From a virus (Duplodnaviria; Caudoviricetes), in IMG/VR virus record IMGVR_UViG_3300038330_000010, positions 1-51,576 of that record: a stretch of 51,576 nucleotides of DNA. The stretch is one strand, 5' to 3'. The position numbers were made by a program, and so were the translations under genes. Under the pieces are notes generated by a model that was not told the origin of the DNA, made no database searches, and worked only from the letters and a program-made list of their open reading frames with translations. The first letter of the stretch is position 1; each line of letters starts with the position of its first letter. Shown piece after piece: positions 1 through 49,630 of this stretch.

Positions 1-520
1 ATCCCACAGGTTCATATCGTATCTGCCACCCAAGAAGTGCATCTGGTAGGACAGGGCAGTAACGGTAGATTCTTTCTCCCCCGCCATGAACACCGCAGCA
101 TTAGCCCGGATGATATCCCATATCTCATCCTGCTCGTTATCGAGCCTTCGTTTGACATGCGGATCCTCAGCATCAAAGCCGGACAGGGCTAGCATGTAGC
201 CAATGCTGGCTTCCTGACCCGTAACGCCATCTACCAGAAACTCGTCCTGTCTCCACACTTCTGTTTCTTCAGGCTTGAAGTTGCCAAAGTCCACATTAAG
301 CAGGGTGTTGCGCTCCAGTGTGTTCCTGAGCCGCCTGGTATACTTCGTTGCCTGTGGAGTCGTGTTGCTACCCAGCGCCACACGCAGATCCCGGTTACGA
401 CAGATAGCCCATGCTGGTAGGTCGTGAGTCATGGTAGTGGTTTTACCACCCCCAGGCGGGGTATTCAGAACCCCACGAATCCTCTCTTCCTTCTGTTGAG
501 CCTCGATCAGCCAGCTCATA
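1..520. repeat. Terminal direct repeat (circular assembly overlap), copy 1 of 51057-51576
   Basis: Manual alignment: 520 nt match with 18 substitutions, all between 127 and 393; 1-126 and 394-520 are identical. Confidence 0.97.
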
Positions 521-936
521 ACGATATGGGCCATCTCAACCTGCCAGGGGATGTGTCGCCGCCCCAGGTAGCGAGTGCGCCAATACCCAAATTCGTGATA
601 GGCATTCTTAGCCTGATCGCTCTGTAGGTCCTCAAACCGGGTAATGGGCGGCGGTATGCTCACAGTCATTAGGTCAGCGACCTTATGCTCAGCCGACTGC
701 TCGTACATACGGTTGCGTACCTGTAGGGGTGTAAGACTATCCCCTTCGATGTACCTGCCAGAGACAGCTTTCATCCACTTGCGTACGGTGGGACGACTCG
801 CCTCGATCTGTTGGCCCACTACATAGGGGTTACGCCCTAAGCGAACCTGGGAGTAGAACCACGTTTTCGCTTCCTCTGTGAAGTTCCCGCCCTTGTTCTT
901 AGGTTCATCAGGCGGATAGTCTTTGGTCTTGGCCAC
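1..936 (-). CDS. terL: Terminase large subunit, 5' part (continues across the junction into 49620-51576; about 790 aa in total)
   Basis: The frame of the 49620..51575 ORF stays open on the - strand from 519 up to a TGA at 991-993. GTG at 936 gives MAKTKDYPPDEPKNKGGNFTEEAKTWFYSQVRLGRNPYVVGQQIEASRPTVRKWMK...HIPWQVEMAHIVMSWLIEAQ...PPGGGKTT. The ORF track misses this part. Confidence 0.88.
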   Translation of the reverse strand, partial: MAKTKDYPPDEPKNKGGNFTEEAKTWFYSQVRLGRNPYVVGQQIEASRPTVRKWMKAVSGRYIEGDSLTPLQVRNRMYEQSAEHKVADLMTVSIPPPITRFEDLQSDQAKNAYHEFGYWRTRYLGRRHIPWQVEMAHIVMSWLIEAQQKEERIRGVLNTPPGGGKTTTMTHDLPAWAICRNRDLRVALGSNTTPQATKYTRRLRNTLERNTLLNVDFGNFKPEETEVWRQDEFLVDGVTGQEASIGYMLALSGFDAEDPHVKRRLDNEQDEIWDIIRANAAVFMAGEKESTVTALSYQMHFLGGRYDMNLWD

Positions 937-943
937 GAGAGAC

Positions 944-949
944 AGTATA
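944..949 (-). promoter_or_regulatory. Candidate -10 box (TATACT) for a leaderless terL/late transcript
   Basis: TATACT lies 7 nt upstream of GTG 936 with no SD; leaderless mRNAs are common in actinobacteria. The -35 match is weak. Confidence 0.45.
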
Positions 950-1036
950 GCTGCTTCCAAAACGGTTGGACAGGCCCAGAGGAGGCTACATCATAGCCTG
1001 CGTCCGCGCTCGCAAACATCCCCCGTGTCAAACAAT

Positions 1037-1068
1037 CGAACGTGTGTTCGCGTGCGAACGTGTGTTCG
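1037..1068. promoter_or_regulatory. Two tandem LexA (SOS/Cheo) box matches
   Basis: CGAACGTGTGTTCG at 1037-1050 and 1055-1068 matches the Gram-positive/actinobacterial CGAAC-N4-GTTCG consensus. Confidence 0.55.
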
Positions 1069-1374
1069 TGTGCGTGCGAGCGTGTGCGTGCGTGCGTGCG
1101 CTGCATCATATATGATGCACTATGTATGACGCGTGCGAGCGTGTGTGAATAGGCGCGTGTGCATGCGTGCATACGTATGCATATGTGTGCTATGTAATAG
1201 TGCGAGTGCTAACTATTGCAAGCATGTGCTAGCGTGCGAGTGTTAACAAAAGCTTGATGTTTTCTTGATGTTTGAGCGTGTGCGAGAGTGTAGTGTTGCG
1301 AGTGTTGACAAGTGAATAGCGAAAGCACACACGCACTCGCAGAATCTAATCACTTAGTGAAAGCGAGAACGAAT

Positions 1375-1680
1375 ATGGCTACTGTGAAAACGTTTGTGTC
1401 ACTCATCGAAGCATTCGTCGAAGATGCGACAAGCGTAACGCTCGAAGAAATCGTCGAAGTTTTCTTCAGCGAAACGCAAGGCGCAGATAAAGCGATCAGC
1501 GCAGATGAGCTTACGATTCTCGTAAGCGAAGTGACTGAACACGACTACAGCGCAAAGTCGATTCGAGCGAATCTTCGCAAGCATGCGTATCGTGATCAGT
1601 CGAAGATGCGAAACGCAACATGGCGAGTATCGCAAGAAGATGCTCTAGCTGAAGTCAAGCACTACTTGCGAGTAGCGTAA
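1375..1680 (+). CDS. Small HTH-like DNA-binding protein (paralog of 3043 and 10680), Pro-free
   Basis: ATG after GAAAGCGAG; ISADELTILV...AKSIRANLRKHAYRD...ATWRVS aligns with ITATELAALV...PKQVRAYLRKEFARD...SSWKIT of 3043..3264. Confidence 0.8.
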   Translation: MATVKTFVSLIEAFVEDATSVTLEEIVEVFFSETQGADKAISADELTILVSEVTEHDYSAKSIRANLRKHAYRDQSKMRNATWRVSQEDALAEVKHYLRVA

Positions 1681-1738
1681 GCACTCAGTAGCTTGTCAAC
1701 AAGCGAGAGCGTGTGTGCTTTCAAGAAAGCGAGCGAAG

Positions 1739-1918
1739 ATGCAAGAACTACGCAAGATATTCGCAGCGATCGAAGTAATCGATCAGCATGCGAGAGCGAT
1801 CGCAGCACTCGCAGATGAGCAGCAGCGAGCGCACGAGTACGAGTGCATGATGCAAGATCTTCACGATCTTCAGCGACATGTTGTCGATCAGATGCGATTG
1901 ATCGCGACAGCGAACTAG
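1739..1918 (+). CDS. Hypothetical 59-aa helical protein with no Pro or Gly
   Basis: ATG after the same GAAAGCGAG RBS variant; amphipathic helical sequence. Confidence 0.7.
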   Translation: MQELRKIFAAIEVIDQHARAIAALADEQQRAHEYECMMQDLHDLQRHVVDQMRLIATAN

Positions 1919-1924
1919 AGCGAG

Positions 1925-1957
1925 AGCGAGCGTGCGTGAAAGCGTGCGCTCGCTTTC
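1925..1957 (+). terminator. GAAA-tetraloop hairpin closing the CC/GG-free unit
   Basis: AGCGAGCGTGCGT-GAAA-GCGTGCGCTCGCT followed by TTC; U-tract is short. Confidence 0.6.
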
Positions 1958-2017
1958 GGGCGTCGTATGCCTCGTGGTGAGCACGGTCGGGCACCAGCGG
2001 CCTCGCGGTTGGCCCCC

Positions 2018-2193
2018 GGAGGTCCTCCCACCTCCACTGGCGGATCGGCGTCCCTACCCATGCCCCAGGACGGAGGAGGTCCTCCTACCGGTGGAGCGGC
2101 GTCCCTGGGGTGGGGCGGACCTCCAACCGGAAGATGGGCGTCCGTATGGAGTCCCACACCGAAGTGGAGGATCACGGAGGACCTCCAGACGCC
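2018..2193. repeat. Array of GG(A/C)GG-W-CCTCC palindromes interspersed with GGCGTCC
   Basis: Palindromes at 2018-2028, 2075-2085, 2114-2124 and 2176-2186; GGCGTCC at 2047, 2098 and 2137; inverted GACGCC at 2188. Confidence 0.85.
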
Positions 2194-2318
2194 CTTTCGG
2201 CCGCCTTTTGCCCGGAATACACGGCTAGGAGCCACATATAGACGGCTCAGGCTGGACAAAGGAAGGCCTACCTAAGATCGGAACCTCCTCAGAGTGCGAA
2301 AACAATCACAAGGACTGG

Positions 2319-2347
2319 TTGCATGAGGAGTTCCGGGTCGCTATCAT
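2319..2347 (+). promoter_or_regulatory. Sigma70/SigA-type early promoter
   Basis: TTGCAT-17 nt-TATCAT, upstream of the RBS and ATG at 2399. Confidence 0.7.
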
Positions 2348-2398
2348 GCATGCATGAGCTTCGCACGATGCGCGGATCCTACAGAAAGCGAGGACAAG

Positions 2399-2746
2399 AT
2401 GGCTCATAGTGGGGATTGTCCCCATCATCCAGATCGAGGCTGTGCCTGCTGGCAGAACCCGATCATCATAGGAGAGTCCTACGTTGTAGTGGCTCGATAC
2501 GGCAGAGAGCAGGATGCGAGGATGATAACGGAGACTCCGCCATCCTCTGAGAAATTCCAGAACAAGGAATATGAGATCCCTCGCTCCACAGAGCGCAGAA
2601 GGTCAGTCCGCAGAAACAGCGGTCAAGCCTTCAACAGCCTAGACAGAAGGGGGACAATCCGAGTCAACAATCGGTCGGTCAAGCAAGGCAAGCAGTGGAG
2701 AACATCAGGTCCTGAGCGATCTGTCCTCCGCTACACAACAGGATGA
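2399..2746 (+). CDS. Hypothetical early protein (basic C-terminus)
   Basis: AGAAAGCGAGG RBS before ATG 2399; ORF track. Confidence 0.65.
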   Translation: MAHSGDCPHHPDRGCACWQNPIIIGESYVVVARYGREQDARMITETPPSSEKFQNKEYEIPRSTERRRSVRRNSGQAFNSLDRRGTIRVNNRSVKQGKQWRTSGPERSVLRYTTG

Positions 2747-2759
2747 AAGAGGTCAAGCC

Positions 2760-2933
2760 GTGAACATCGACGAGGCAGATCCGTACAGCACCGTGTTGAG
2801 CCGCATCAACGCGGCATTTGAGTTCGGGAGGGACCACAACATGGAAATGAGTCAGAAGGAGTACGACATCCTCCGTGCTATCGCTCTGGAGGCTGAAGCT
2901 GCCGACCCAGATTTCGAGTGGATCATCCCGTAA
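2760..2933 (+). CDS. Hypothetical 57-aa acidic protein (below the ORF-track cutoff)
   Basis: GAAAGAGG RBS, GTG start, MNIDEADPYSTVLSRINAAFEFGRDHNM...DFEWIIP*. Confidence 0.65.
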   Translation: MNIDEADPYSTVLSRINAAFEFGRDHNMEMSQKEYDILRAIALEAEAADPDFEWIIP

Positions 2934-2937
2934 CCTC

Positions 2938-3000
2938 GTATGCAGAGTGGAGCGTCTGGAGAGTTAGCCATATTCGCTCTGGACGCTCCATCGTGCATAC
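2938..3000 (+). other. Long intergenic hairpin (possible RNase III or processing site)
   Basis: GTATGCA..TGGAGCGTCTGGAG / CTCTGGACGCTCCA..TGCATAC pair with G-U pairs. Confidence 0.6.
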
Positions 3001-3042
3001 CTCAACTCACCACATGAAGCCACTGAAAGGAGGTGAAACATA

Positions 3043-3264
3043 ATGGCAGCGAAGAAGCCAGCAGAGGTTCCGACGATCACCGCCACAGAGCTAGCCGCTC
3101 TCGTGGAGAGGGACCCGAAGCAGGTCCGTGCATATCTCCGCAAGGAGTTTGCAAGGGACCCGGAAGCGAAGGGTTCGTCGTGGAAGATCACCGCACAACT
3201 GCAGGAGCAGACGGTGAACCACTTCACGGCCCTGAACGAGCGCAAGGAAGCAAAGGCCTCCTGA
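3043..3264 (+). CDS. Small HTH-like DNA-binding protein
   Basis: Strong RBS GAAAGGAGGTG; TATELAALVERDPKQVRAYLRK helix-turn-helix pattern. Confidence 0.8.
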   Translation: MAAKKPAEVPTITATELAALVERDPKQVRAYLRKEFARDPEAKGSSWKITAQLQEQTVNHFTALNERKEAKAS

Positions 3265-3412
3265 CGTTCATCCACAACTGAAGTCCGCGTTCGTGCCTGA
3301 GAGGGAAAGTCCCTCAGTGAGGAAACACCATGTAACGGTGAACAGAGGTTGTGCCTACAAATCACAGTAGGCACTTCCTGTGTCCATTGACGCAAGAAAG
3401 GAGGTGAACCAA

Positions 3413-3682
3413 ATGCCAACAGGAGAACTACCAGATAGGGACGTCACTCCGTTTGCGGAGCTAACGTCCGTGATCACAAGGGACTGGCTAGTCCAGAACT
3501 CCCCAGAGGACATCGTGGCCTACACGAACGACTTTGGGATGGCACGGGACCTAGTCAGTGAGATGGCCATGAGCCTATCACTGTGTCCCGTCCACTTCAT
3601 CGACTGGGCCATCTGCTTCGACGATGAGGATCCTGAGTGTGGGCAGGTCCGAGCGATCTTTCCACAGAGCCACGACACATAG
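3413..3682 (+). CDS. Hypothetical protein with Cys/His cluster
   Basis: AGAAAGGAGGTG RBS; CPVH..C..C motif. Confidence 0.75.
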   Translation: MPTGELPDRDVTPFAELTSVITRDWLVQNSPEDIVAYTNDFGMARDLVSEMAMSLSLCPVHFIDWAICFDDEDPECGQVRAIFPQSHDT

Positions 3683-3690
3683 GAGGAGCC

Positions 3691-3918
3691 GTGAACAACG
3701 AGCCGACTCGCACATGGCCGTGCGAGAAATGCGGAGCAACCGTAGAGCGGTACAGAGGGCAGGATGACGTTTCCTGCTCCGAGTGCGGAACGCCTTACAA
3801 CTGCTTCGGACAGAGGTTGCGGGACGATTACCGTGACAACCCTTCCAACTATGACTCCGACATCGGAGACATGGAGGGATACGAGATGGAGATGCTCAGA
3901 AAGGAGCATGGTGAGTAA
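3691..3918 (+). CDS. Zn-ribbon protein
   Basis: AGGAGG RBS; CEKCG...CSECG. Confidence 0.75.
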   Translation: MNNEPTRTWPCEKCGATVERYRGQDDVSCSECGTPYNCFGQRLRDDYRDNPSNYDSDIGDMEGYEMEMLRKEHGE

Positions 3919-4195
3919 GGAATCGAAAGACCTGACCTACGAGCAGACGCAGGAACTCCTGCGAGCCCCGTGGAAGCGTGGCTATCTGACTCGGGACTTC
4001 CACTACAACGGCCTGCATCCCGCAGGGGAGCGAGTCACCTGGAAGACCTACCACAACGACACGGACTACATTTCCGTAAGGCTCTGGGGAGAAATCTCCG
4101 CAGACGGCAATTCCATGTACCCGATTGTGGAATTCACGGAAGTGCCAGAGTTGGTGCGTCCAGCTGAAACAGACGAGGATGGGAACTACCTATGA
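3908..4195 (+). CDS. Hypothetical protein
   Basis: AGAAAGGAG RBS; coupled to neighbouring ORFs. Confidence 0.7.
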   Translation: MVSKESKDLTYEQTQELLRAPWKRGYLTRDFHYNGLHPAGERVTWKTYHNDTDYISVRLWGEISADGNSMYPIVEFTEVPELVRPAETDEDGNYL

Positions 4196-4416
4196 AAAGG
4201 CACATGATGCCTGAGGGAAGTCTGAACCGCTATCCGTTAGCGGAACTGACAACCATCAGGACAACCAAGCACATGGGGCTCTATACCACAGAGGAGCTCC
4301 TGCTAATGACGGAGGTGATCGAGAACCTGAAGCGGGTCAAGCGGCAGCGTCTCCATGACGAGGCACAGGAGCGGAAGATTGCTCGGAAGCTCCGCAACAA
4401 GAAGGTCGAGGTGTAA
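4192..4416 (+). CDS. Hypothetical basic protein
   Basis: ATGA overlap with the upstream gene. Confidence 0.65.
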   Translation: MKRHMMPEGSLNRYPLAELTTIRTTKHMGLYTTEELLLMTEVIENLKRVKRQRLHDEAQERKIARKLRNKKVEV

Positions 4417-4418
4417 GG

Positions 4419-4631
4419 ATGCTTATCCTGATAGGGCACGACAAGAACGGAGCGTTCGCGGCCTACAAGCCGATGTCCGAAGTGGTCAAGCTGATCAAGG
4501 AAGACCCTGCGTTCACCGTGGGGTTAGTGGAATGCATGGAGGATATGGAGTTCAATCCAGACGACATCTCCCCTGCCCACTGGATGCAGTTGAGGAAGGA
4601 TATCCTGAACAGCATGAGGGCCAGCGCATGA
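4419..4631 (+). CDS. Hypothetical protein
   Basis: GAGGT RBS; tight packing. Confidence 0.65.
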   Translation: MLILIGHDKNGAFAAYKPMSEVVKLIKEDPAFTVGLVECMEDMEFNPDDISPAHWMQLRKDILNSMRASA

Positions 4632-4855
4632 GCGAGGACCTAACCCGTGAGTTTGTGGACTCAATCAAGGACATTGAGGACGAGTATGCGGATGCTCACC
4701 ATGATGGACACAGTTTGTGGATCACCTACGACCAGAGAGGGATAGTGAGCCTCGACGTTTGCGAGGAGCCTCCATTCAGCAATGATGGCGGGCTCCTGCA
4801 GATCAACCTGTCGGAGTTTTTCCAGTCCCTGTTGTATGTCCTAGAGGAGAGATAA
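4628..4855 (+). CDS. Hypothetical acidic protein
   Basis: ATGA overlap; MSEDLTREF start within the 4355..4855 ORF. Confidence 0.65.
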   Translation: MSEDLTREFVDSIKDIEDEYADAHHDGHSLWITYDQRGIVSLDVCEEPPFSNDGGLLQINLSEFFQSLLYVLEER

Positions 4856-5043
4856 TGGAATACGACCAAGCGACGGATGAGCGGACCTTCGACGATCTGC
4901 TCCTTCATCTGAAGAAGGCCGATGCCTTGATGAACCTAGCGTTCACCGCTACTGGCCTAGAACGCCTCAATGCGGAGCACAAGGCTCACGATCACGTGGT
5001 CAAGGCCTGGAACACAGCCGCTTACCTGCAAGAGCGCCAATGA
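4855..5043 (+). CDS. Hypothetical protein
   Basis: GAGGAG RBS, TAATG overlap. Confidence 0.65.
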   Translation: MEYDQATDERTFDDLLLHLKKADALMNLAFTATGLERLNAEHKAHDHVVKAWNTAAYLQERQ

Positions 5044-5187
5044 CGGAAGAGTCCTGAGTGCTTATGGACCCTACTACCAGCAGCCGTCTATGACCAGCGA
5101 TGGTTGGCTAGCAACTGGAATAGCAGCGTCCATAAACATTCGGAGACGGATGTTTAATTGGATAGGTACTATAGGAAAGGAGGTGAA

Positions 5188-5520
5188 ATGCCCCCAGAAA
5201 GGCCTCAGATCGTTGACGAGGAATACATGAGCCAAGCGATGGTTCAGATTTCATTCCGTTTGCCATTACGGCTCCGTATGAAACTGGACGCCTATTTGCA
5301 AGCCATGGACCGACCTGCAACTCAGCGGTCTGAGGAATCACAAGACTGGCCTAAGACACTACAGGCCACGATCAACAGAGGGTTGGAAGACTTTCTGGCC
5401 TCACATGTTCCGAAGAACAGATCAGGCCCAGATATGAAGCCAGCCCGACCAGCAATCAAAGCCAAGAAGAAGGAAAGACAGGAGGAAGAACAAATTGGCC
5501 GAGAAGTTGAAGGAGTTTGA
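5188..5520 (+). CDS. Putative ribbon-helix-helix regulator
   Basis: GAAAGGAGGTG RBS; MVQISFRLPLRLRMKLDAYL...LQATINRGLEDFL RHH-like pattern. Confidence 0.6.
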   Translation: MPPERPQIVDEEYMSQAMVQISFRLPLRLRMKLDAYLQAMDRPATQRSEESQDWPKTLQATINRGLEDFLASHVPKNRSGPDMKPARPAIKAKKKERQEEEQIGREVEGV

Positions 5521-5815
5521 GTTCACTCGGATGGGCAGGGGAAAGCCTGGATACTGGGAGAAGTTCCTGGATGGTAACATCTGGCAACTCGGTATCGAGG
5601 ATGCCCCCAACGGTAGTGCGAAGGACGTTGAGTCCATCAGAGGTAGCATCTCTGGTTATGTACGCCGCCAGCAAGAGGCGAACAATCCGAAGTTCGTAGA
5701 CATGGCTCTGCGGACTCAAATAGTGAGGGAATACGACGAGGACGGAGAGCCGTCAGAAGATCCAGCCGACAGCCTTCTGGTTGTCCAGCTGGTCGAAGCA
5801 CAGGACGAGGAGTAA
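5495..5815 (+). CDS. Hypothetical protein
   Basis: AGGAGG RBS, TTG start. Confidence 0.7.
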   Translation: MAEKLKEFEFTRMGRGKPGYWEKFLDGNIWQLGIEDAPNGSAKDVESIRGSISGYVRRQQEANNPKFVDMALRTQIVREYDEDGEPSEDPADSLLVVQLVEAQDEE

Positions 5816-5818
5816 GCA

Positions 5819-6004
5819 ATGGCCAAGACAGCAGAAACCACCACAACCATCGAGTTCAAGACCAAGAAGGCAACGAAGGGCACGGTTGTGTTCGAGGAGA
5901 TGCGGAACGACGACGAGCGGCCGCATACCTTCTACATGCTCAACCGTCTCCATGACGAGCTTGGCAGCCCAAGCCAGATCGTCATGACCATCGAGGTCGA
6001 CTGA
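5819..6004 (+). CDS. Hypothetical small protein
   Basis: GAGGAG RBS. Confidence 0.7.
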   Translation: MAKTAETTTTIEFKTKKATKGTVVFEEMRNDDERPHTFYMLNRLHDELGSPSQIVMTIEVD

Positions 6005-6019
6005 CCAACAACCATACTC

Positions 6020-6532
6020 ATGTATGGACCAATAGCAAGGGAACAAGGCCACGAAAGGAGAGCCCAATTGTATTCCCCACCAGCAGAACTGCCTACTCAG
6101 GCAGAAGTAGAGGCCACAAGGCCTAGCAAGCAGAAGGCTAAGAGGAAAAGGCGACAGCGAGGCATTGAAGAGGCCGTTGTGCAGGCCATGACTCACAGAG
6201 TCGGCTTGCACACGACCGCTCCCGATGTGATGGAGAATCTGCCGAAAGGCCAGTTCAACCCGCCGCTCACAAGGCAGCAGGTTCTCACTGCCTTCAACCA
6301 TCTAGCCAAGAAGGGCGTGGTGCATCGAGTCACAGGCGGCGTCTATGTCTATAGGCCCAGTCTGGATGACATAGCCCCTCAGCCTGCTATTGCACCGCCG
6401 TCTACCCAACTGAATAGCCATCTCTACGAGGCAATCGGTACACTGTCCAACGGGACTCTCATAGTTCGGTCGGATGATGGCCAACTGTTCGTAGCCCTTC
6501 CCCTAGAGGAGTATTTCAATGCCCAATCCTGA
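6020..6532 (+). CDS. Winged-helix DNA-binding protein
   Basis: LTRQQVLTAFNHLAKKGVVHRVTGGVYVY wHTH pattern; start codon uncertain. Confidence 0.6.
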   Translation: MYGPIAREQGHERRAQLYSPPAELPTQAEVEATRPSKQKAKRKRRQRGIEEAVVQAMTHRVGLHTTAPDVMENLPKGQFNPPLTRQQVLTAFNHLAKKGVVHRVTGGVYVYRPSLDDIAPQPAIAPPSTQLNSHLYEAIGTLSNGTLIVRSDDGQLFVALPLEEYFNAQS

Positions 6533-7028
6533 GTACCCTGACCTCAACATTCCACTGCTTCGCAAGACAGTGGAGTGGGTAGAGGAGCAAGAGGAGCTAG
6601 ACACCAGAGAGGCCGAGGACTGGGTCACAGAGTCACAGGTCAAGTGGAATCAGGAGAGCTGGTTTCACGGCACGATCACTGGCAAGGAAATCGAAGCCGT
6701 TACCCTATACAACGAGGTGATGAAGGCTTATGAGGTATGTGATACCACATACTGCTTCGCTGGCAAGATCGTGCTGGACACAGGCCAGTGGATGCCAATC
6801 ATTCTGTTCAGCCCCGGGGACGAGAACAACCTGATTGGCAGCGAATGGGGCTCAGGCAGCATTGTGAACAAGGAGACGGGCAGGATATCGGACGTAATGC
6901 TCGAGGCCTGTCGTCTGCTAGGACTCAGTGAGGATCCACTCGTTGATGGCCTTAATCTGTTCTCAGGATCCAACTCAGCCAGTCAGATCAGGTCCATCGC
7001 TGAGATAATGGCAGGAGAGAAGCTATGA
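6519..7028 (+). CDS. Hypothetical phage protein (W.Q..W / C.T..C.AG motif)
   Basis: GAGGAG RBS; motif typical of actinophage early proteins. Confidence 0.7.
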   Translation: MPNPEYPDLNIPLLRKTVEWVEEQEELDTREAEDWVTESQVKWNQESWFHGTITGKEIEAVTLYNEVMKAYEVCDTTYCFAGKIVLDTGQWMPIILFSPGDENNLIGSEWGSGSIVNKETGRISDVMLEACRLLGLSEDPLVDGLNLFSGSNSASQIRSIAEIMAGEKL

Positions 7029-7345
7029 ACGGCATATTCGTACACGGCACAAGACCAAAGTCCAAGCGGGAAATCAGGGACATAGTGATGGGTGCCCAAG
7101 ACCCATCACAACTCCCCCTGGATGATGGTCATCTCCATGACCTCTACTGTGTGGTCATTGAGGACACGACCCCGGAGTTCCTACCGCATGATGAGTTCGA
7201 CGGCTCTCTTGCTGAGGCCAATCGAGTTAACTACAAAGGCCCTGTCGCTTTCGTGGGACCTGATCCCTATACCAACAGGAAGTTCTACGGGACTCTTGAA
7301 CTCCTCAGGAAAGGTGATGGCTCAGAGAGGTGGGTAGTGAAGTGA
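7025..7345 (+). CDS. Hypothetical protein
   Basis: ATGA overlap, AGGAG RBS. Confidence 0.7.
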   Translation: MNGIFVHGTRPKSKREIRDIVMGAQDPSQLPLDDGHLHDLYCVVIEDTTPEFLPHDEFDGSLAEANRVNYKGPVAFVGPDPYTNRKFYGTLELLRKGDGSERWVVK

Positions 7346-7722
7346 ACACCGCATCAAGAAAAGCTGGATCCGGTGTCATCTCCCCTGCTCACGATAAATC
7401 GGTGGGCGTCCGCATTGCTTGGATCCGGAGCACCTAAGGTATGAATGAGGATCGATCTTACCCGACCGTCGTCATAATACCTATTGACCTGATACAAAAA
7501 AAAGGAATGAGGTGTGGATCCGGAACCCTATGCACCTGCTAAGCAACGACTGCCTATCGCGGAGGAGCCCGCTCCCTGGGGCGGGAGGCTACCTCCCCGC
7601 TAGGCAAAGTCTAGCAGCGTGCGGCAAACCGGGCAAATACCATAATGCCAATAACAACTACACCATATCTGGATTGGAAACTCAGAGAAGCGGCCATTGA
7701 AATCGAAAGGACCTTTTTCAAC

Positions 7723-8001
7723 ATGGCATACCCGAAGAAAAGCCAGTACGTGGTCTTGAACCACAGCAACAACGGAGTATTAGTAGCCTGCCTGGTGCAG
7801 GCCGATAGTCAGGAGGAAGCGGTAGAGCGTCGAGCAAAGAGGTTGGGGACAAACAACACCTCAATCTTTGCGGTTTCAGGTGTCGTGCCCTCAGAGTACG
7901 GGGCAGGTGGTTCGTATCTGCATCCCGTAGACTTCGTGCCCCCGCCTCAGCCCAAGACTCAGGTAGTGGTGGGCTCTAGCCCACTGAGAAATCTGGAGTG
8001 A
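7723..8001 (+). CDS. Hypothetical protein
   Basis: GAAAGGA RBS before ATG 7723 (the ORF is open from 7645). Confidence 0.6.
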   Translation: MAYPKKSQYVVLNHSNNGVLVACLVQADSQEEAVERRAKRLGTNNTSIFAVSGVVPSEYGAGGSYLHPVDFVPPPQPKTQVVVGSSPLRNLE

Positions 8002-8381
8002 GCCTGGAGAACGTACCTGATCGTATCTGGTTCTTACTGATCGGTCTGGTCATATTCGCCATAACGTTGTGGCTATACCAGGGCTGGAACCGGGCTGAGA
8101 GGGTCCTTAACCGTGTCACAACGTTAATTACGGTCGAGAGCCCTCACTACTGCGGTACCTGCATGCTGACCAATTGGGAGTTCAGCCTGCCGGAGGATCA
8201 CTTTCCGCCATGGTTGCATAAGTCCGCAGACAATATGAGGCAGATGCCATACGGAACAGCGTACATTACAGACCATGAGTACCATCCCGTGTATCTGGTA
8301 GATATAGCCAAACTGACTCGGGATCCGGAGTCCTGGGAGCAGTATGGGCGCCATCTACATCTACGCTCCCCCAGGGTATGA
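7998..8381 (+). CDS. Membrane protein
   Basis: N-terminal TM helix IWFLLIGLVIFAITLWLY. Confidence 0.7.
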   Translation: MSLENVPDRIWFLLIGLVIFAITLWLYQGWNRAERVLNRVTTLITVESPHYCGTCMLTNWEFSLPEDHFPPWLHKSADNMRQMPYGTAYITDHEYHPVYLVDIAKLTRDPESWEQYGRHLHLRSPRV

Positions 8382-8803
8382 AACTTACGGCCGAACAGAG
8401 GGAGGCAGTTAGGCGTTTGCAGATGGAGCATCTAACCCCGACCTCATACCTGAAAATACTGGACACTGAAGCCTATATCGAGGGATTATGGCGTGAGTCT
8501 GCCGAGTGTGTTCAGGTATGCAAGGACTATCCAGATCAGTATAACCCGAACGAGTGGTTCCCTATGGATCAGGGCCCCAATAAAGCAGACCACGTCCCCA
8601 TGAAAGTGAGGGCCATTTGCAACGACTGTGAGGTACGTCTACCCTGCCTTGCTTATGCCATTCAGACTAGACAGGAGAACGGTGTATGGGGTGGGCGAAC
8701 AATCAAGTCGGTTCGAAGCATACGAACCCGATTGCTCGAGGCCTTAGCTCAGATGAACCAGACAGACAGGGGGCCTAGACAAGCAGGAAGCAAGCACAAC
8801 TAG
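8378..8803 (+). CDS. whiB: WhiB-family Fe-S transcription factor
   Basis: AEC...WFP...ICNDCEVRLPCLAYA...GVWGG; the family is characteristic of actinobacteria and their phages. Confidence 0.92.
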   Translation: MKLTAEQREAVRRLQMEHLTPTSYLKILDTEAYIEGLWRESAECVQVCKDYPDQYNPNEWFPMDQGPNKADHVPMKVRAICNDCEVRLPCLAYAIQTRQENGVWGGRTIKSVRSIRTRLLEALAQMNQTDRGPRQAGSKHN

Positions 8804-15799: not shown

Positions 15800-16084
15800 G
15801 TGACTGAGGAAACTCATGGGACGGCAGCAGAAGAAGCTGTGGGCCTGGTCTACGGCGACAGAGCAAAGACCTACGGTCACCCGGCCGATGTGTACGAGAA
15901 GGTCGCAGAGCTATGGTCTGGGTACCTAGAGCAGAGCGTCACGGCAAAGGATGTAGCCTTGCTGATGGTTCTGTTCAAGCTAGGCCGGTTCATTGAGAGG
16001 CCCAACAGAGACAGTCTGGTAGATGCTCACGGCTATCTGCTGGTGTGGGAGAGGATAGACAGAAGGAGTACCGGAGAGGAATGA
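15800..16084 (+). CDS. DUF6378-like protein
   Basis: GDRAKTYGHP...VAELWSGYL...DVALLMVLFKLGR...DSLVDAHGY. Confidence 0.85.
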   Translation: MTEETHGTAAEEAVGLVYGDRAKTYGHPADVYEKVAELWSGYLEQSVTAKDVALLMVLFKLGRFIERPNRDSLVDAHGYLLVWERIDRRSTGEE

Positions 16085-16850: not shown

Positions 16851-17148
16851 ACCTAACCGTGACCAACTAACCGAAGCCCTGGCCCTACATCAGCGAGCGT
16901 TGTCAGCATTGGCGCTGGAACTGCCTGCCCAAGTGTTCGAGGACTACAAAGCCATTGCGACCGTATTGGATGAAGCTGCTCGTTGGGCTAGGGACTTCCC
17001 CACCGACGTACAAGTAGAAGCCTGCGCTAAGGCTCTCTGCCTCTATGCGTGGGGCGCTGACAAATGGGAGGACGATCACAAGGGCATGTGGCGAGAACAA
17101 GCGAGGGCTGCGTTGGAGGCGGTAACCATGATCGGAGACAACCAGTGA
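16840..17148 (+). CDS. Hypothetical protein
   Basis: GAGGTG RBS; WREQARAALEA tail. Confidence 0.6.
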   Translation: MTSKPNRDQLTEALALHQRALSALALELPAQVFEDYKAIATVLDEAARWARDFPTDVQVEACAKALCLYAWGADKWEDDHKGMWREQARAALEAVTMIGDNQ

Positions 17149-17993
17149 CCTTTAAGGTAGTAAGAGCCCACGACTTGACCTCATTGTGGGCCAAGAATGT
17201 ACGCCAGCATCTGTATCGGGAAGAGGTTGACCTGTATCTGGGTATCGGTACCAACCTCAATGACATGGTACTGAAGGCAGACTCTGCGGAGTACGACTTC
17301 AACCTGCAAGAGTTGTGGTTGAACAAGCAACGTTGGACCAGGCTGATTCGGGAATACATCGACCCGTATGAGTTGTCCAGGTTTGTCAAGAATAGCCACA
17401 TCATCTACAACGGTAAGGGAAAGAATGGAGTTGTCACCAATATGCATTTCCGTTCAGTCGACCGCCGAGCCGACCTCCGACGCCACAAGTGGGGCAACTG
17501 CTTACTGGCCGCTACGTTTAGAGGTACACCGAATTCCAGAGTGCCGCCAACACTTACACTTCACAGCCGAGTCTCATACAATGCCTATATGCTCGGTATG
17601 GATATGGGAGTGGCTCACGCAATTGCTCGGGAGATTGCCGACCCCGCCACTATTGCAATCCAATGGCATTTGGATGTCATGCAACTCCATTCCTTCAAGT
17701 GTCTGCCCTACCTGTATACACAACCAGACCTAATGGAGGTGCTAGAGGACAGGGATCATCTCACTGAGCTGGCTTTGCAGTTCCCTACCTGGAAGAGCAT
17801 CTCCCGTTGGTGGTGGAAGGTATTGCAGTTCGAGGATGAAGGCAAGACTGTAGCGGCTGAGTTGTACGGGCCCTTCAAGAGGATCCGCAGAAGGTACGAG
17901 GAGTATCAGCGTGGGATTACCGTGCCATCGGTACACATCTCGGAGCTGGACTTCAGCAAACTAGGAGATGGTTATAGTGCTAAGAGACCGTAA
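17145..17993 (+). CDS. Divergent thymidylate-synthase-fold protein (dCMP-type Asp)
   Basis: WGNCLLAATF (catalytic-Cys strand), LHSRVSYNAYMLGMD (R..+11 Asp), WHLDVMQLH. Confidence 0.65.
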   Translation: MTFKVVRAHDLTSLWAKNVRQHLYREEVDLYLGIGTNLNDMVLKADSAEYDFNLQELWLNKQRWTRLIREYIDPYELSRFVKNSHIIYNGKGKNGVVTNMHFRSVDRRADLRRHKWGNCLLAATFRGTPNSRVPPTLTLHSRVSYNAYMLGMDMGVAHAIAREIADPATIAIQWHLDVMQLHSFKCLPYLYTQPDLMEVLEDRDHLTELALQFPTWKSISRWWWKVLQFEDEGKTVAAELYGPFKRIRRRYEEYQRGITVPSVHISELDFSKLGDGYSAKRP

Positions 17994-18735
17994 GGATGTT
18001 GACCATCAGCTTCGCAAGAGGTTTATCCAGACAGGTGAGGTAGTCAACCGGGAAGAGTGGCAAGCCATGAGGGACGATCGTCCCATGACTGTCACCTATG
18101 AGATTGCCGACGTTGATCTGGAGATACCTGTACCCCTGGCCATTGATCTATGGCAGGACGTGTGCCAACCAAATCTCCCCTGGGCTGAGGATCACTTCAA
18201 GGAGCGAGTTGGGGGTGTACCCCTCAACCCGGGGGAGCAATACAAGAACTGGCCTTGGTATGAGCAAGGGGTAGAGGAACACAAAGGCACAGGTAAGTTC
18301 AGTCACACCTACATGGAGAGAATGTGGGGTGATGCAGCGGCCACACTGGATGGGGTAGTCAAGCTCCTGAGGGAAAGACCTATGACCCGCCAGGCATATT
18401 GCACAATATGGTGGCCAATAGATGTGATGAACTCCAACCTCAGTCGGCGTGTGCCATGTTCTCTCGGGTACCTGTTCCAGTTCAGACCAGAAACACAGTC
18501 CTTCGATATGTGGTACTACATGAGGTCGGTAGACTTCTATCGTTACCTGTGGGACGACATCTACATGGCCGGGCGCTTGCTTCAGTGGGTCAGGAGGAAG
18601 GCACACATCGAAGCGCCCATCGGTTCAGTCCACCTGAAGATAGCCAACCTCCACGTGTTTGCTGCCGAGCAGAGCAGACTGGAAGAGGAGTTCAAGACAG
18701 AGGAAAGGGATAGGTTGAACAATGCTTTCCGATAG
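17968..18735 (+). CDS. Thymidylate-synthase-fold dCMP (hydroxy)methylase-like enzyme
   Basis: TRQA, VPCSLGYLFQFR, YMRSVDFYRYLWDD (Asp at the E. coli ThyA N177 position), IANLHVF. Confidence 0.85.
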   Translation: MVIVLRDRKDVDHQLRKRFIQTGEVVNREEWQAMRDDRPMTVTYEIADVDLEIPVPLAIDLWQDVCQPNLPWAEDHFKERVGGVPLNPGEQYKNWPWYEQGVEEHKGTGKFSHTYMERMWGDAAATLDGVVKLLRERPMTRQAYCTIWWPIDVMNSNLSRRVPCSLGYLFQFRPETQSFDMWYYMRSVDFYRYLWDDIYMAGRLLQWVRRKAHIEAPIGSVHLKIANLHVFAAEQSRLEEEFKTEERDRLNNAFR

Positions 18736-19282
18736 CCATTTCATGGACGTGGCCGGGGTTATCTCCGACGCAGGCACATGCTCCCGGCTGCAGGTTGGGG
18801 CAGTGATCGTCAGGGATAGGCGCATCATCTCCACAGGATACAATGGTGCCCCTAAAGGTATGCCTCACTGTGACCACAGTAACCCAGATGATTTAAGGTT
18901 TACTACCATTATGGGCGGCTGTGTTGTGTCGGTACATGCTGAAGCCAATGCCATTTGCTATGCAGCCAAGACCGGGATAGCCACAGATAAGGCCAGTCTC
19001 TACACCACAGATGCACCGTGCCAGAAATGCGCGGAGTTGATCGTCAACGCCGGGATAATCGAGGTGATATATGGAAGAGAATACAGAATCCGTGACGGGC
19101 TCGATCTCCTTAAAGCAGCTAGGGTCCACGTTACGAGCATTGAGCAATCCAGCCTGCACTTTATGCCCCCTGCACCAGGACACGGACCGAGTGTGCATCC
19201 CAGTCAACAGTCCGACCCGAGCTTTGAAGAAGGATGGACAGCAGCTGCGGATGCTCATCGTCGGGGAGGCCCCAGGGTATAG
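18722..19282 (+). CDS. dCMP deaminase
   Basis: TCSRLQVGAVIV...GYNG...HAEANA...PCQKC; the C-terminal extension overlaps the polymerase gene. Confidence 0.93.
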   Translation: MLSDSHFMDVAGVISDAGTCSRLQVGAVIVRDRRIISTGYNGAPKGMPHCDHSNPDDLRFTTIMGGCVVSVHAEANAICYAAKTGIATDKASLYTTDAPCQKCAELIVNAGIIEVIYGREYRIRDGLDLLKAARVHVTSIEQSSLHFMPPAPGHGPSVHPSQQSDPSFEEGWTAAADAHRRGGPRV

Positions 19283-49339: not shown

Positions 49340-49630
49340 TCACGGTACGTTTATCCGCTGTTGAATCAATACCCGGACGTCAGCGGTGGCAGCCCCCACA
49401 ATCCCGAAGAGGCGGTCTGAATCCTTGCCAGTCAGAGACTTATGGGCCTCGTCAGAGGGGCTAAACACGTCCCCGGCCTCAAGGGGAAAGCCATTAGCGG
49501 TGGTTACGGTGCTATCGCCTAGAAAGATAGTGGCTGAGTGGTTATTCTTCAGTATATAGGACGGATACTGAGTGCCCTGAATCACTGTGGCTGAGGTAGT
49601 GACTGAGGTAACGAACTGTCTAGCGGCCAT
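49340..49630 (-). CDS. Small beta protein (capsid decoration-like)
   Basis: IFLGDSTVTTANGFPLEAG; start MAARQF at 49630. Confidence 0.65.
   Translation of the reverse strand: MAARQFVTSVTTSATVIQGTQYPSYILKNNHSATIFLGDSTVTTANGFPLEAGDVFSPSDEAHKSLTGKDSDRLFGIVGAATADVRVLIQQRINVP

What the first reader, a model, noticed from the sequence alone, without database searches (positions are those of the whole stretch)
1025..2347. Candidate new system: motif-free entry cassette, motif-dense array and cytosine-modification operon
Seen in order beside terL: CC/GG-free unit with a DNA-binding paralog, hairpin, ~330 bp saturated with CC/GG palindromes, then the first conventional promoter (2319-2347). The same genome encodes two dCMP-type TS-fold enzymes. 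Two inferred models. (A) Staged entry or defence evasion: the desert enters unrecognised and makes an inhibitor, while the array acts as an injection-pause signal (by analogy to the T5 injection-stop signal) or as a decoy. (B) The virion DNA carries modified C, adjacent modified Cs impede host RNA polymerase, and the desert makes the factor that licenses transcription of the rest. I do not know of a described system with this dinucleotide-level design.
Basis: inference. Interest (0 to 1): 0.88.

Follow-up and report, generated by a model that had tools for sequence, protein, structure and literature searches.

The report
GG/CC-free leader cassette beside terminase
An uncultured phage and most of its relatives write the first ~0.5-1 kb of their early genes without the DNA steps GG and CC, next to a block packed with GG..CC palindromes, so something not yet identified must read that two-letter step.

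Summary
Window 1025-1957 (933 nt, 50% G+C) holds 4 GG and no CC, against 120 +/- 8.5 in shuffles. The next-longest GG/CC-free run in the 51-kb genome is 38 nt. The ban acts at synonymous sites. It recurs beside terL in 13 of 21 distinct relatives.

The segment holds a small HTH-like gene whose paralog lies after the array, a GG-less ribosome site (GAAAGCGAG), a variable small gene and a 17-bp hairpin. A 330-nt non-coding array follows. Its core is GG(N0-2)CC and its exact motif differs by lineage. Contigs of four RNA libraries cover the desert genes. One RNA contig joins 1970 back to 988, so the desert is a discrete unit.

Two TS-fold dCMP-type enzymes exist, but the one relative without a desert has them too. 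The desert is the most palindrome-rich part of a palindrome-avoiding genome, so it does not simply "enter unrecognised".

Best reading (0.3): a leader cassette kept free of the half-site read by the phage's own MerR-like proteins, which bind the array. Rivals are T5-like staged entry with a terminal repeat, adjacent modified cytosines, and an RNA-level reader. I found no published description.

The parts
1..936 (-). 5' part of the large terminase gene. The true start is probably GTG at 936, not the TTG at 960 listed for the ORF.
   Evidence: phrog_38 terminase large subunit, E 4e-31, for the overlapping copy 49620-51575. The N-terminus MAKTKDYPP... aligns with L001 MAKKLKPP.... 941-960 belongs to a DNA block that is non-coding in relatives.
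941..1033 (.). Conserved non-coding junction block. It holds CAGTATAGCTG (943-953), GGAC..GAGGAGGCT/ACATCA (around 970-993) and CGCAAACATCCCCCGTGTCAAAC (1011-1033). The last C-run ends exactly where the desert begins.
   Evidence: The same block lies in L001, L013, L020, L021, L022, L024 and L027. In L020 it lies about 600 nt from terL.
988..1970 (.). 983-nt unit defined by an RNA-library contig that reads 1748-1970 and then 988-1024 ('goes back 983').
   Evidence: table 5: run X7, one contig, depth 4.1, 37 nt on the shorter side, no shared letters at the joint. This is a single observation.
1025..1957 (.). GG/CC desert.
1193..1317 (+). Three copies of GTGCGAGTG(C/T)T(A/G)AC (1193-1218, 1227-1252, 1289-1314). 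The last ends in TTGACAAGTGAAT (1305-1317). This is the candidate early promoter or operator region.
   Evidence: Repeat family D4. TTGACAAGTGAAT is shared with L001 and L020. RNA-library contigs begin at 1318, 1318 and 1320 in 3 of 4 runs, which is a weak hint of a 5' end.
1375..1680 (+). gp1375, 101 aa: a small HTH-like protein with no Pro, 1 Gly and 1 Trp. The GG-less ribosome site GAAAGCGAG lies 7 nt upstream.
   Evidence: Family alignment A1 with invariant K61, R64, A65, L67, R68, R73, W83. 140 metagenomic homologs, no Pfam domain. 3 GG/CC against 31.5 +/- 4.4 expected from its amino acids and the genome's codon usage. AF2 model pLDDT 82.
1739..1918 (+). gp1739, 59 aa: a variable cargo gene of the desert, also preceded by GAAAGCGAG.
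   Evidence: 0 GG/CC against 13.1 +/- 3.1 expected. No homolog in any of the loci fetched by then, L001-L052. No Pfam or PHROG family at threshold.
1921..1958 (+). 17-bp hairpin with a 4-nt loop and no U-tract. It closes the desert.
   Evidence: (I16).
1958..2290 (.). Non-coding array saturated with GG/CC. It holds 4 copies of GGAGGWCCTCC and 3 copies of the ...GGCGTCC motif.
   Evidence: Its ORFs are not conserved as proteins. No Rfam family matched. The RNA fold gives z -1.5.
2319..2347 (+). Sigma-70-like promoter candidate, TTGCAT-N17-TATCAT.
   Evidence: Read from the sequence. It falls below the threshold of the scan. Relatives have a better version at the same place.
2399..2746 (+). First gene after the array, with normal GG/CC content and conserved in relatives.
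   Evidence: 47 GG/CC against 51.5 expected. tblastn hits in L001, L021, L024 and L008.
3043..3264 (+). gp3043, the second paralog of the HTH-like family, with normal GG/CC content and the canonical ribosome site GAAAGGAGGTGA.
   Evidence: 35 observed against 31.3 expected.
17064..18735 (+). Tandem pair of TS-fold enzymes (17064-17993 and 17968-18735).

Best explanation
The desert is the leader (pre-early) cassette of the rightward early genes. It starts at the conserved non-coding junction beside the terminase gene and ends at a strong hairpin. Its DNA is kept free of the step GG/CC because that step is the half-site read by the phage clade's own small MerR/BldC-like winged-helix proteins, gp1375 in the desert and its paralog gp3043 after the array.

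These proteins bind the clustered GG(N0-2)CC palindromes of the array, and GG/CC-rich patches on the terL side in some relatives. There they form a protein-DNA barrier or switch between the leader and the rest of the genome. A leader without any half-site stays unbound, so its own promoter and genes keep being expressed.

Shown: the ban, its conservation, its action on synonymous sites, the paralog pair, the lineage-specific palindromes, the non-coding nature of the array, and the presence of desert sequence in RNA libraries.

Inferred: that the family binds DNA, that it reads GG, that the array is its target, and what binding achieves.
For: 1. The ban is selected, not a product of mutation. 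G+C is kept, with CpG and GpC O/E of 1.7-1.8. gp1375 has 3 GG/CC against 31.5 +/- 4.4 expected and gp1739 has 0 against 13.1 +/- 3.1. The paralog and the neighbour outside the desert are normal (35 against 31.3; 47 against 51.5). The L001 pair behaves the same way (2 against 23.9; 27 against 29.3).

2. It is conserved. 13 of 21 distinct relatives have a GG/CC-free run of at least 200 nt within 2 kb upstream of terL, up to 493 nt at 47-59% G+C. Runs elsewhere in the same loci are 26-74 nt, with one of 153 nt in L008. In the merged deserts of the window and 14 relatives (15 genomes) there are 9 exceptions, in 5 of them. All are GG on the sense strand, 8 of 9 are GGC and 7 of 9 are TGG; at least four of the TGG lie at the family's conserved Trp codon.

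3. One copy of the HTH-like family lies inside the desert and one after the array in the window, L001, L003, L004 and L005, which is all 5 genomes where both flanks were read.

4. The family keeps K61, R64, R68, R73 and W83 invariant on the predicted second and third helices and the wing. Meanwhile the array motif changes by lineage but always keeps a GG..CC core: GGAGGWCCTCC, GGAGGWCCGCC, GGAACC or GGCC.

5. The core of the model resembles MerR-type winged-helix DNA-binding domains: RacA Z 6.1, pSK1 Par on centromere DNA Z 5.9, CvkR Z 5.7. hhalign to mycobacteriophage D29 Gp36 gives probability 56% and E 1.2e-4 over the 21-column HTH. D29 Gp36 is a small MerR-like repressor that binds the GC-rich repeats AGGCGGC-N13-AGGCGGC. 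A GG-to-AA change weakens its binding (PMC12266134: abstract and sections 28, 29 read).

6. GGAGGWCCTCC with at most one mismatch occurs 4 times in the array and only twice elsewhere in 51 kb.

7. The array is not a gene and not a known RNA.
Against: DNA binding by the family is not shown. The fold matches (Z 5.7-6.1) lie within the aligner's stated noise for helical models, and EF-hand-like rows score higher. Foldseek found nothing at E <= 0.001. The PDB profile search found nothing. Pfam gave only sub-threshold matches at E >= 0.1.

L008 keeps a paralog next to a GC-rich region, yet the paralog gene has many CC and a normal ribosome site, and only 153 nt are GG/CC-free. This model does not predict that.

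A repressor normally needs a specific operator, not a two-letter ban over 0.5-1 kb. A protein that reads every GG would also coat the rest of the phage genome.

Earlier notes of this scan (unchecked AI notes) report GG/CC-free cassettes in unrelated phages and phage-plasmids. That favours a more general reader than this clade's protein.
Confidence: 0.3

Rival explanations
1. T5-like staged entry. Segment 988-1970 is a direct terminal repeat and the first DNA in the cell. Its genes act before the rest enters. The array just inside it is an injection-stop or checkpoint region. GG/CC is banned because something in the cell attacks that step on the exposed tip.
For: The cassette lies at the divergent junction beside the packaging gene and next to a roughly 95-nt conserved non-coding block. 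Both coordinates fall within 13-37 nt of the desert's edges. Position 988 lies in the conserved block. Position 1970 follows GTATGC, which recurs as GTATGC, GCATGC or GTAAGC at the same place in L013, L020, L001 and L024. Cargo genes in the desert vary (gp1739; two 145-aa genes in L014; a 60-aa gene in L020). This matches the variable leading regions described for Autographiviridae (PMC12455610, abstract read). In T5 the stop region is an untranslated, repeat- and palindrome-rich stretch in the left terminal repeat, and only first-step DNA is sensitive to EcoRI and CRISPR (bioRxiv 10.1101/866236, passages read). L008, whose unit is 2.3 kb from terL, has no desert.
Against: The terminal repeat rests on one contig of depth 4.1 in one RNA library. 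No DNA run was laid. The joint could equally come from reverse transcriptase switching from an RNA 5' end at 988 to a 3' end at 1970, just after the hairpin. No host reader of a dinucleotide is known, and the relatives come from runs and records with many habitat labels and from 37 to 55% G+C. The desert has more six-base palindromes than any other part of the genome, including sites absent elsewhere. That is the opposite of the restriction-site-free T5 first-step DNA. No nuclease or known inhibitor is encoded in it.
Confidence: 0.25
2. Modified cytosine. The two TS-fold enzymes replace dC by a modified dC. Two modified C next to each other on one strand hinder host RNA polymerase, or attract a modification-dependent nuclease. 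The unit that must be read first from virion DNA therefore has none.
For: Two TS-fold proteins lie in tandem. The 255-aa one has the catalytic Pro-Cys. It also has Asp at the position I read as the Asn177 equivalent, eight residues after MRSVD in the HMMER alignment. The model of the 309-aa one is closest to dCMP hydroxylase AfhB, then MilA, with T4 dCMP hydroxymethylase at rank 8. The pair is conserved in every relative searched. In the main body, six-mer palindromes that contain GG/CC are less avoided than the others (median O/E 0.67 against 0.35, Mann-Whitney p 0.04). Unchecked earlier notes link such bans to modification genes.
Against: L008 has both enzymes and no desert. The strong palindrome avoidance of the main body (O/E 0.54) argues against fully protective C replacement (my inference). 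TS-fold enzymes act on free nucleotides, so every C would be modified, including the 195 C of the desert. No glycosyltransferase or other DNA-level modifier was found among the 60 window ORFs scanned with Pfam; the ORFs were not all scanned. The 5-hydroxy-dCMP synthase signature D169N (PMC13326640, section 28 read) is not present. There is no chemical evidence.
Confidence: 0.15
3. An RNA-level reader. The ban covers one transcription unit (988 or 1318 to about 1970). It protects the first phage transcript from a factor that recognises GG or CC in RNA, such as a ribonuclease, or from pairing with the Shine-Dalgarno or anti-Shine-Dalgarno sequences.
For: The unit ends at a strong hairpin, and the joint coordinate 1970 lies 12 nt after it. 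Even the ribosome sites are rewritten: GAAAGCGAG in the desert against GAAAGGAGGTGA outside it. GAAAG can still pair with a ...CCUCCUUUC 16S rRNA tail, which I recall for the phyla concerned and did not test. Contigs of four RNA libraries cover 1318-1843.
Against: Both GG and CC are banned, and the ban covers 1025-1317, upstream of where 3 of 4 RNA contigs begin. No sense-strand-only depletion is seen in the downstream early genes. No bacterial RNA reader of these dinucleotides is known to me.
Confidence: 0.12
4. Avoidance of a host defence motif without staged entry: restriction sites that contain GG/CC, CC or NGG protospacer-adjacent motifs, or Type IV enzymes that read C-mC.
For: The array cores GGCC, GGWCC and GGWWCC look like restriction sites. 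GGCC (O/E 0.72), CCGG (0.65), GGWCC (0.73) and CCWGG (0.75) are mildly avoided genome-wide.
Against: Protecting 2% of a genome gives no protection unless that part is exposed alone. The ban is the same across relatives with very different G+C and habitat labels. An array dense in such sites lies right beside the desert.
Confidence: 0.06
5. Chance, an assembly artefact, or the array being a Gly/Pro-rich repeat protein gene.
For: ORF 1967-2275 would encode GGPPT repeats.
Against: 0 of 2000 shuffles came near the observed count. The feature is present in independent assemblies and in the contigs of ten runs. In L001 the DNA motif is read in different frames within one ORF, and the array ORFs have no protein-level conservation.
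Confidence: 0.01

Closest known systems
First-step-transfer (pre-early) DNA and injection stop signal of phage T5 (bioRxiv 10.1101/866236; passages read)
   Same: A short segment beside the genome end holds the first-expressed small genes. It is followed by an untranslated stretch crowded with repeats and palindromes. In T5 that segment is the only part exposed to restriction and CRISPR.
   Different: The T5 segment is about 9.6 kb and lies inside a 10-kb terminal repeat. It lacks particular six-base sites, not a dinucleotide. Here a terminal repeat is only hinted at by one RNA contig. The segment is rich in palindromes. I did not look for A1/A2 homologs or DnaA boxes.
Motif-free leading (first-injected) region of Autographiviridae (PMC12455610; abstract and outline read)
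   Same: Whether a motif lies in the leading region decides sensitivity to a defence. Leading regions are variable and carry accessory genes.
   Different: There the motif is the specific site of one Type I restriction-modification system of one host. Here the banned word has two letters, is the same across a whole clade, and costs Gly, Pro, most Trp and the canonical ribosome site.
Small MerR/BldC-like phage and actinobacterial regulators: D29 Gp36 (PMC12266134; abstract and sections 28, 29 read) and BldC (PMC5859096; abstract read)
   Same: These are proteins of 56-100 aa with a single winged HTH and no effector domain. They bind arrays of short repeats as multimers. D29 Gp36 reads GC-rich GCGGC repeats and represses genes downstream.
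   Different: The only sequence likeness is the 21-column HTH (hhalign probability 56%). Binding is untested here. No GG/CC-free design of the regulator's own gene is reported in the parts of those papers that I read.
Restriction-site (palindrome) avoidance in phage genomes
   Same: The main body of this genome shows it strongly: O/E 0.54, and ten six-mers have no copy.
   Different: The desert is the reverse case. It is the richest part of the genome in palindromes and is purged of a non-palindromic two-letter step.

Membership tests
T5-type first-step-transfer region with injection stop signal | Lies in a direct terminal repeat at the end that enters first | tested here: inconclusive
   One RNA-library contig joins 1970 to 988. 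The assembly is circular, with a 520-nt end overlap that lies inside terL.
T5-type first-step-transfer region with injection stop signal | Untranslated repeat- and palindrome-rich stretch at its inner edge | tested here: met
   The array 1958-2290 is non-coding and holds 4 palindromes and 3 direct repeats.
T5-type first-step-transfer region with injection stop signal | Two-step DNA transfer that needs pre-early proteins | not testable with these tools
   This needs an infection experiment. No host is in culture.
T5-type first-step-transfer region with injection stop signal | First-step DNA free of the restriction sites present elsewhere | tested here: not met
   The desert has 20 six-mer palindromes per 933 nt, against a mean of 6.9 (maximum 16) in 53 chunks of the main body. 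It holds the genome's only AAGCTT and ACGCGT.
MerR/BldC-like small winged-helix regulators (D29 Gp36 type) | MerR-type winged HTH fold without an effector domain | tested here: inconclusive
   VIA-align rows: RacA Z 6.1, pSK1 Par Z 5.9, CvkR Z 5.7. These are within the stated noise, and EF-hand rows score higher. hhalign to D29 Gp36 gives probability 56% over 21 columns. Pfam gave only sub-threshold matches and the PDB sequence search none.
MerR/BldC-like small winged-helix regulators (D29 Gp36 type) | Binds clustered GC-rich repeats and represses downstream genes | not testable with these tools
   A cluster of repeats lies next to the gene. Binding needs gel-shift or footprint assays.
Thymidylate-synthase-fold dCMP-modifying enzymes | TS fold with a catalytic cysteine | tested here: met
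   255-aa protein: Pfam PF00303 at 28.2 bits (cut-off 24.3), phrog_160 E 2e-22, and Pro-Cys aligned to that of 9iqu. 309-aa protein: fold only, Foldseek E 5.7e-6, TM 0.41-0.55, with an invariant Cys146.
Thymidylate-synthase-fold dCMP-modifying enzymes | Asp in place of Asn177 (cytosine rather than uracil substrate) | tested here: inconclusive
   Asp lies eight residues after MRSVD in the HMMER alignment. The numbering is my own reading of a weak alignment (E 8e-4).
5-hydroxy-dCMP synthases (PMC13326640) | Asn in place of Asp169 | tested here: not met
   The 255-aa protein has MRSVD where 9iqu has MRSQN. The signature is taken from section 28 of the paper.
Leading-region motif avoidance against one restriction-modification system | The banned motif is the recognition site of an identified host system | not testable with these tools
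   The host is unknown. A WhiB gene suggests an actinobacterium.

The most novel reading that the evidence does not exclude
GG/CC-free leader cassettes are a general, undescribed design of tailed phages. Some factor present in infected cells of many phyla acts on the bare dinucleotide step GG/CC in DNA. Candidates are a host activity, or the consequence of modifying G:C pairs. Phages write the roughly 1 kb that must work first, at the tip of the packaged DNA, without that step. They bracket it with GG..CC-dense arrays that mark where protection or licensing begins. In this clade the unit would be the 983-bp terminal repeat 988-1970.
Probability: 0.3. Interest if true: 0.92.

Novelty: new variant of a known kind. 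Interest (0 to 1): 0.8.

Why it matters
A ban on a two-letter DNA word is held over 0.4-0.9 kb at about 50% G+C. It costs glycine, proline, nearly all tryptophan and the canonical ribosome site. It is conserved in relatives whose terminase is only 42-64% identical. Such a ban cannot be maintained without a strong reader of that word. No bacterial or phage factor with that specificity is known to me, and two full-text searches found no description.

It would also give a simple sequence signature for locating the first-acting end of uncultured phage genomes.

Tried and rejected
Chance and mutational decay are rejected by the shuffles, the kept G+C content and the synonymous-site test.

The array as a protein gene is rejected: only low-complexity tblastn matches to one locus, on both strands. 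The array as a known RNA or stable RNA fold found no support: no Rfam match up to E 1 other than chance-level eukaryotic families, all inside the desert; fold z -1.5. ARAGORN found no tRNA.

Z-DNA-type alternating purine-pyrimidine runs are present at 1040-1190 in the window but not in L001, so I dropped that idea. An AT-rich unwinding element fits the low-GC relatives only.

Cultured relatives: terL residues 1-320 found nothing in the phage collection. DNA of 1-6000 matched only a 120-nt stretch of a small gene in mycobacteriophages.

Homodimer of gp1375: the complex-prediction job gave no verdict.

Cargo genes of the desert (gp1739; L014 147 and 143 aa; L020 60 aa; L024 66 aa): no Pfam family reached its threshold.

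Parts of 1-8000 without RNA contigs (terL, the array, 5875-8000) say nothing, because contigs do not show absence.

The script stopped after six genes because of wrong coordinates for L013. The remaining relatives were therefore not tested that way.
Full report
WHAT IS THERE. The window is a whole circularly assembled phage genome. Its first 25-mer recurs near position 51057, so about 520 nt at the two ends overlap and the true length is about 51.06 kb. Genes on the + strand from about 1375 to 25160 are early and replication genes. They include a RepB-primase/AAA_25 helicase, an SNF2 helicase, a UDG-exonuclease-PolA fusion, a PD-(D/E)XK nuclease and a WhiB-like factor. Genes on the - strand are structural and start with the large terminase (phrog_38, E 4e-31). 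The finding therefore sits at the divergent junction between terL and the early genes.

- Positions 1025-1957 (933 nt, 50% G+C) contain four GG, all as GGC, and no CC. 2000 shuffles of the segment gave 119.8 +/- 8.5 (minimum 96).
- The next-longest GG/CC-free run in the genome is 38 nt. The poorest 933-nt window starting beyond 2400 holds 113.
- G and C are not lost but interleaved: CpG O/E is 1.71 and GpC 1.81, against 0.72 and 0.87 elsewhere. This excludes deamination-type decay.
- The ban reaches synonymous sites and codon junctions. Given its amino acids and the genome's codon usage, gp1375 should hold 31.5 +/- 4.4 GG/CC and holds 3. gp1739 should hold 13.1 +/- 3.1 and holds 0. gp3043 (35 against 31.3) and gp2399 (47 against 51.5) outside the desert are normal. 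The script stopped after six genes.
- Even the ribosome sites are rewritten. The two desert genes have GAAAGCGAG. gp3043 and the gene at 3413, both outside the desert, have GAAAGGAGGTGA.
- The segment ends in a 17-bp hairpin; the 61-nt stretch 1912-1972 folds at -35.8 kcal/mol, z -4.6.
- Next comes a 330-nt stretch with up to 63 GG/CC per 200 nt. It carries GGAGGWCCTCC four times, each of the first three followed by a ...GGCGTCC motif.
- This array is not a conserved gene, not an Rfam family and not an unusually stable RNA.

IT IS CONSERVED. TerL-based searches gave 52 locus entries. 40 of them have at least 800 nt upstream of terL, and these make 21 distinct upstream sequences.
- 13 of the 21 have a GG/CC-free run of at least 200 nt within 2 kb upstream of terL: for example 493, 492, 483, 468 and 425 nt at 47-59% G+C, and 0 observed against 56 expected per 300 nt in L027.
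- Runs elsewhere in the same loci are 26-74 nt.
- The other eight are: four low-GC lineages with 121-147-nt AT-rich runs; two weaker cases (L031, 191 nt; L028, 7 against 33 per 300 nt); the distant L006; and L008.
- In L008 the unit lies 2.3 kb from terL, and the paralog gene has a normal ribosome site and many CC.
- In the merged deserts of the window and 14 relatives (15 genomes) there are nine exceptions, in five of them. All are GG on the sense strand, and at least four are the family's conserved Trp codon.

The order of parts is the same in the closer relatives that were read (L001, L013, L020, L024). First comes a conserved non-coding block ending in CATCCCC(CC)/(G)TGTCAAA. Then come the desert with an HTH-like gene and variable small genes, a hairpin, a dense array, a promoter, a gp2399 homolog, and later a second HTH-like paralog. 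The array core differs by lineage but is always GG(N0-2)CC: GGAGGWCCTCC, GGAGGWCCGCC, GGAACC or GGCC.

EXPRESSION AND UNIT BOUNDARIES. Ten public runs hold the stretch. Five are RNA libraries, and four of these were laid.
- In all four, contigs cover gp1375 (1318-1711, 1318-1535, 1350-1624, 1320-1553). Others cover 1693-1843, gp3043 and further early genes.
- Contigs cannot rank genes or prove a start. That three begin at 1318-1320, right after the conserved TTGACAAGTGAAT, is only a weak hint.
- One contig of run X7 (depth 4.1) reads 1748-1970 and continues at 988-1024 with no shared letters.
- Both coordinates lie within 13-37 nt of the desert's edges. Position 988 falls in the conserved junction block. 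Position 1970 lies 12 nt after the hairpin and after a GTATGC that recurs in relatives.
- The desert is therefore a discrete unit. The joint may mean joined ends of a 983-bp terminal repeat, a tandem copy, or reverse transcriptase switching from an RNA 5' end to a 3' end. I could not lay DNA reads to decide.

THE CYTOSINE ENZYMES.
- The 255-aa protein is a TS homolog with the catalytic Pro-Cys. By my reading of a weak alignment it also has Asp at the Asn177 position. It keeps Asp169, so it lacks the 5-hydroxy-dCMP synthase signature.
- The upstream 309-aa protein has no sequence family with a function. Its model (pLDDT 79) is closest to dCMP hydroxylase AfhB, then MilA, with T4 dCMP hydroxymethylase at rank 8.
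- The TS-like gene is present in 6 of 6 relatives' records searched and its 309-aa neighbour in 5 of 5, L008 included. Co-occurrence therefore shows shared descent only.

A RESULT AGAINST 'ENTERS UNRECOGNISED'.
- The main body avoids six-base palindromes strongly: 6.9 per 933 nt against 12.7 expected. Ten six-mers with 3.4-10.1 expected copies each are absent.
- The desert holds 20 per 933 nt, more than any of 53 chunks of the main body. It holds the genome's only AAGCTT and ACGCGT and 2 of its 3 CGATCG. CGCG is twelve times denser there.
- Against its own dinucleotide make-up, the desert still shows mild avoidance (20 against 27 +/- 5).
- The ban on GG/CC therefore overrides ordinary restriction-site avoidance.
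- A terminal repeat could tolerate cuts. That is my inference.

WHAT READS GG/CC? The only gene kept in the deserts of the eight relatives whose desert ORFs were read is the small HTH-like protein.
- Its family has 140 metagenomic members, no Pfam domain and no PDB sequence match.
- It keeps K61, R64, R68, R73 and W83 invariant.
- Its conserved core resembles MerR-type winged-helix domains: RacA, pSK1 Par on centromere DNA, and CvkR, at Z 5.7-6.1. That is within noise.
- Its HTH aligns weakly with mycobacteriophage D29 Gp36. D29 Gp36 is a small MerR-like repressor of GC-rich GCGGC repeats, and a GG-to-AA change weakens its binding (PMC12266134).
- An invariant Lys/Arg helix facing arrays whose only invariant is GG..CC suggests that each subunit reads a GG step. 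That would explain why the ban works at the level of two letters.

This is my best explanation, at 0.3. It is not shown, and L008 and the sheer breadth of the ban speak against it.

The rivals are staged entry of a terminal repeat as in T5 (0.25), adjacent modified cytosines (0.15), an RNA-level reader (0.12) and host-motif avoidance (0.06). They are not mutually exclusive.

EARLIER NOTES OF THIS SCAN (unchecked AI notes) describe GG/CC-free cassettes of about 1 kb beside packaging genes in several unrelated phages and phage-plasmids. One of those notes reports adjacent dense arrays and several report regulator genes. I treat them as leads. They raised my weight for a general reader and for the terminal position. 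One claim, sense-strand-only GG loss next to the desert, is not seen here.

COMPARISON AND VERDICT. The closest described things are the T5 first-step DNA with its stop region, the motif-free leading region of Autographiviridae, and small MerR/BldC-like repeat binders. None involves a dinucleotide ban. Two full-text searches found no such description.

The feature is real, strongly selected, clade-wide and unexplained. I rate it a new variant of leading-region motif avoidance. I give it a 0.3 chance of being one instance of a general, undescribed principle.

Noticed in passing
window 1-520 and 51057-51576: The two ends of the window repeat each other (about 520 nt, not letter-perfect) inside terL. 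The record is therefore a circular assembly of about 51.06 kb. The ORF list splits terL into a 320-aa piece and a 651-aa piece.
   Followed up: partly
window 934-960: The listed TTG start of terL (960) lies inside a DNA block that is non-coding in relatives. GTG at 936 fits the relatives' N-termini. TATACT on the - strand (944-949) lies 7 nt before that GTG, so terL may be leaderless, as many actinobacterial genes are (inference).
   Followed up: partly
window 8378-8803: A WhiB-like transcription factor (Pfam E 3.9e-12) points to an actinobacterial host. The extended ribosome site GAAAGGAGGTGA fits a 16S rRNA tail ending ...CCUCCUUUC (recalled, not tested).
   Followed up: no
whole window outside 961-2400: Very strong avoidance of many six-base palindromes. 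AAGCTT, AGCGCT, TGCGCA, AGTACT, TGTACA, ACGCGT, TCGCGA, CGCGCG, GCGCGC and TTTAAA are absent, and CGCG occurs 17 times against 71 expected. GGTACC is twice as frequent as expected from a first-order model (23 against 10.8).
   Followed up: partly
window 19071-21551: One 826-aa protein fuses a uracil-DNA-glycosylase-superfamily domain, a 3'-5' exonuclease and a family A DNA polymerase.
   Followed up: no
window 1303-1340 and 1692-1722: An inverted repeat (20 nt at 95%, plus TGTTGACAAG/CTTGTCAACA) brackets gp1375. L001 has TTGACAAG and GCGAGACTCGC on both sides of its homolog. Its function is unknown.
   Followed up: no
L014 10-960 (- strand): Two paralogous genes of about 145 aa and unknown family lie in the GG/CC-poor stretch after the HTH-like gene of this 37% G+C relative. 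The cassette can therefore carry extra cargo under the same ban.
   Followed up: partly
L001 5680-5810 and L013 3835-3905 (- strand view): A C-rich, G-poor patch of 70-110 nt (CCGCC-like repeats) lies between the conserved junction motif and the desert in two relatives. The window has GTGCG-type repeats there instead.
   Followed up: no
window 15800-16084: A DUF6378 protein (E 1.3e-22) lies 1 kb upstream of the TS-fold pair. Low-GC relatives have a P-loop kinase-like ORF (…GPDNSGKST…) near theirs. Both would fit a nucleotide-modification pathway.
   Followed up: no
window 1583: A-to-G difference in the RNA contig of run X6 (depth 6.6). Without a DNA run of the same sample this is most simply a strain variant.
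   Followed up: no
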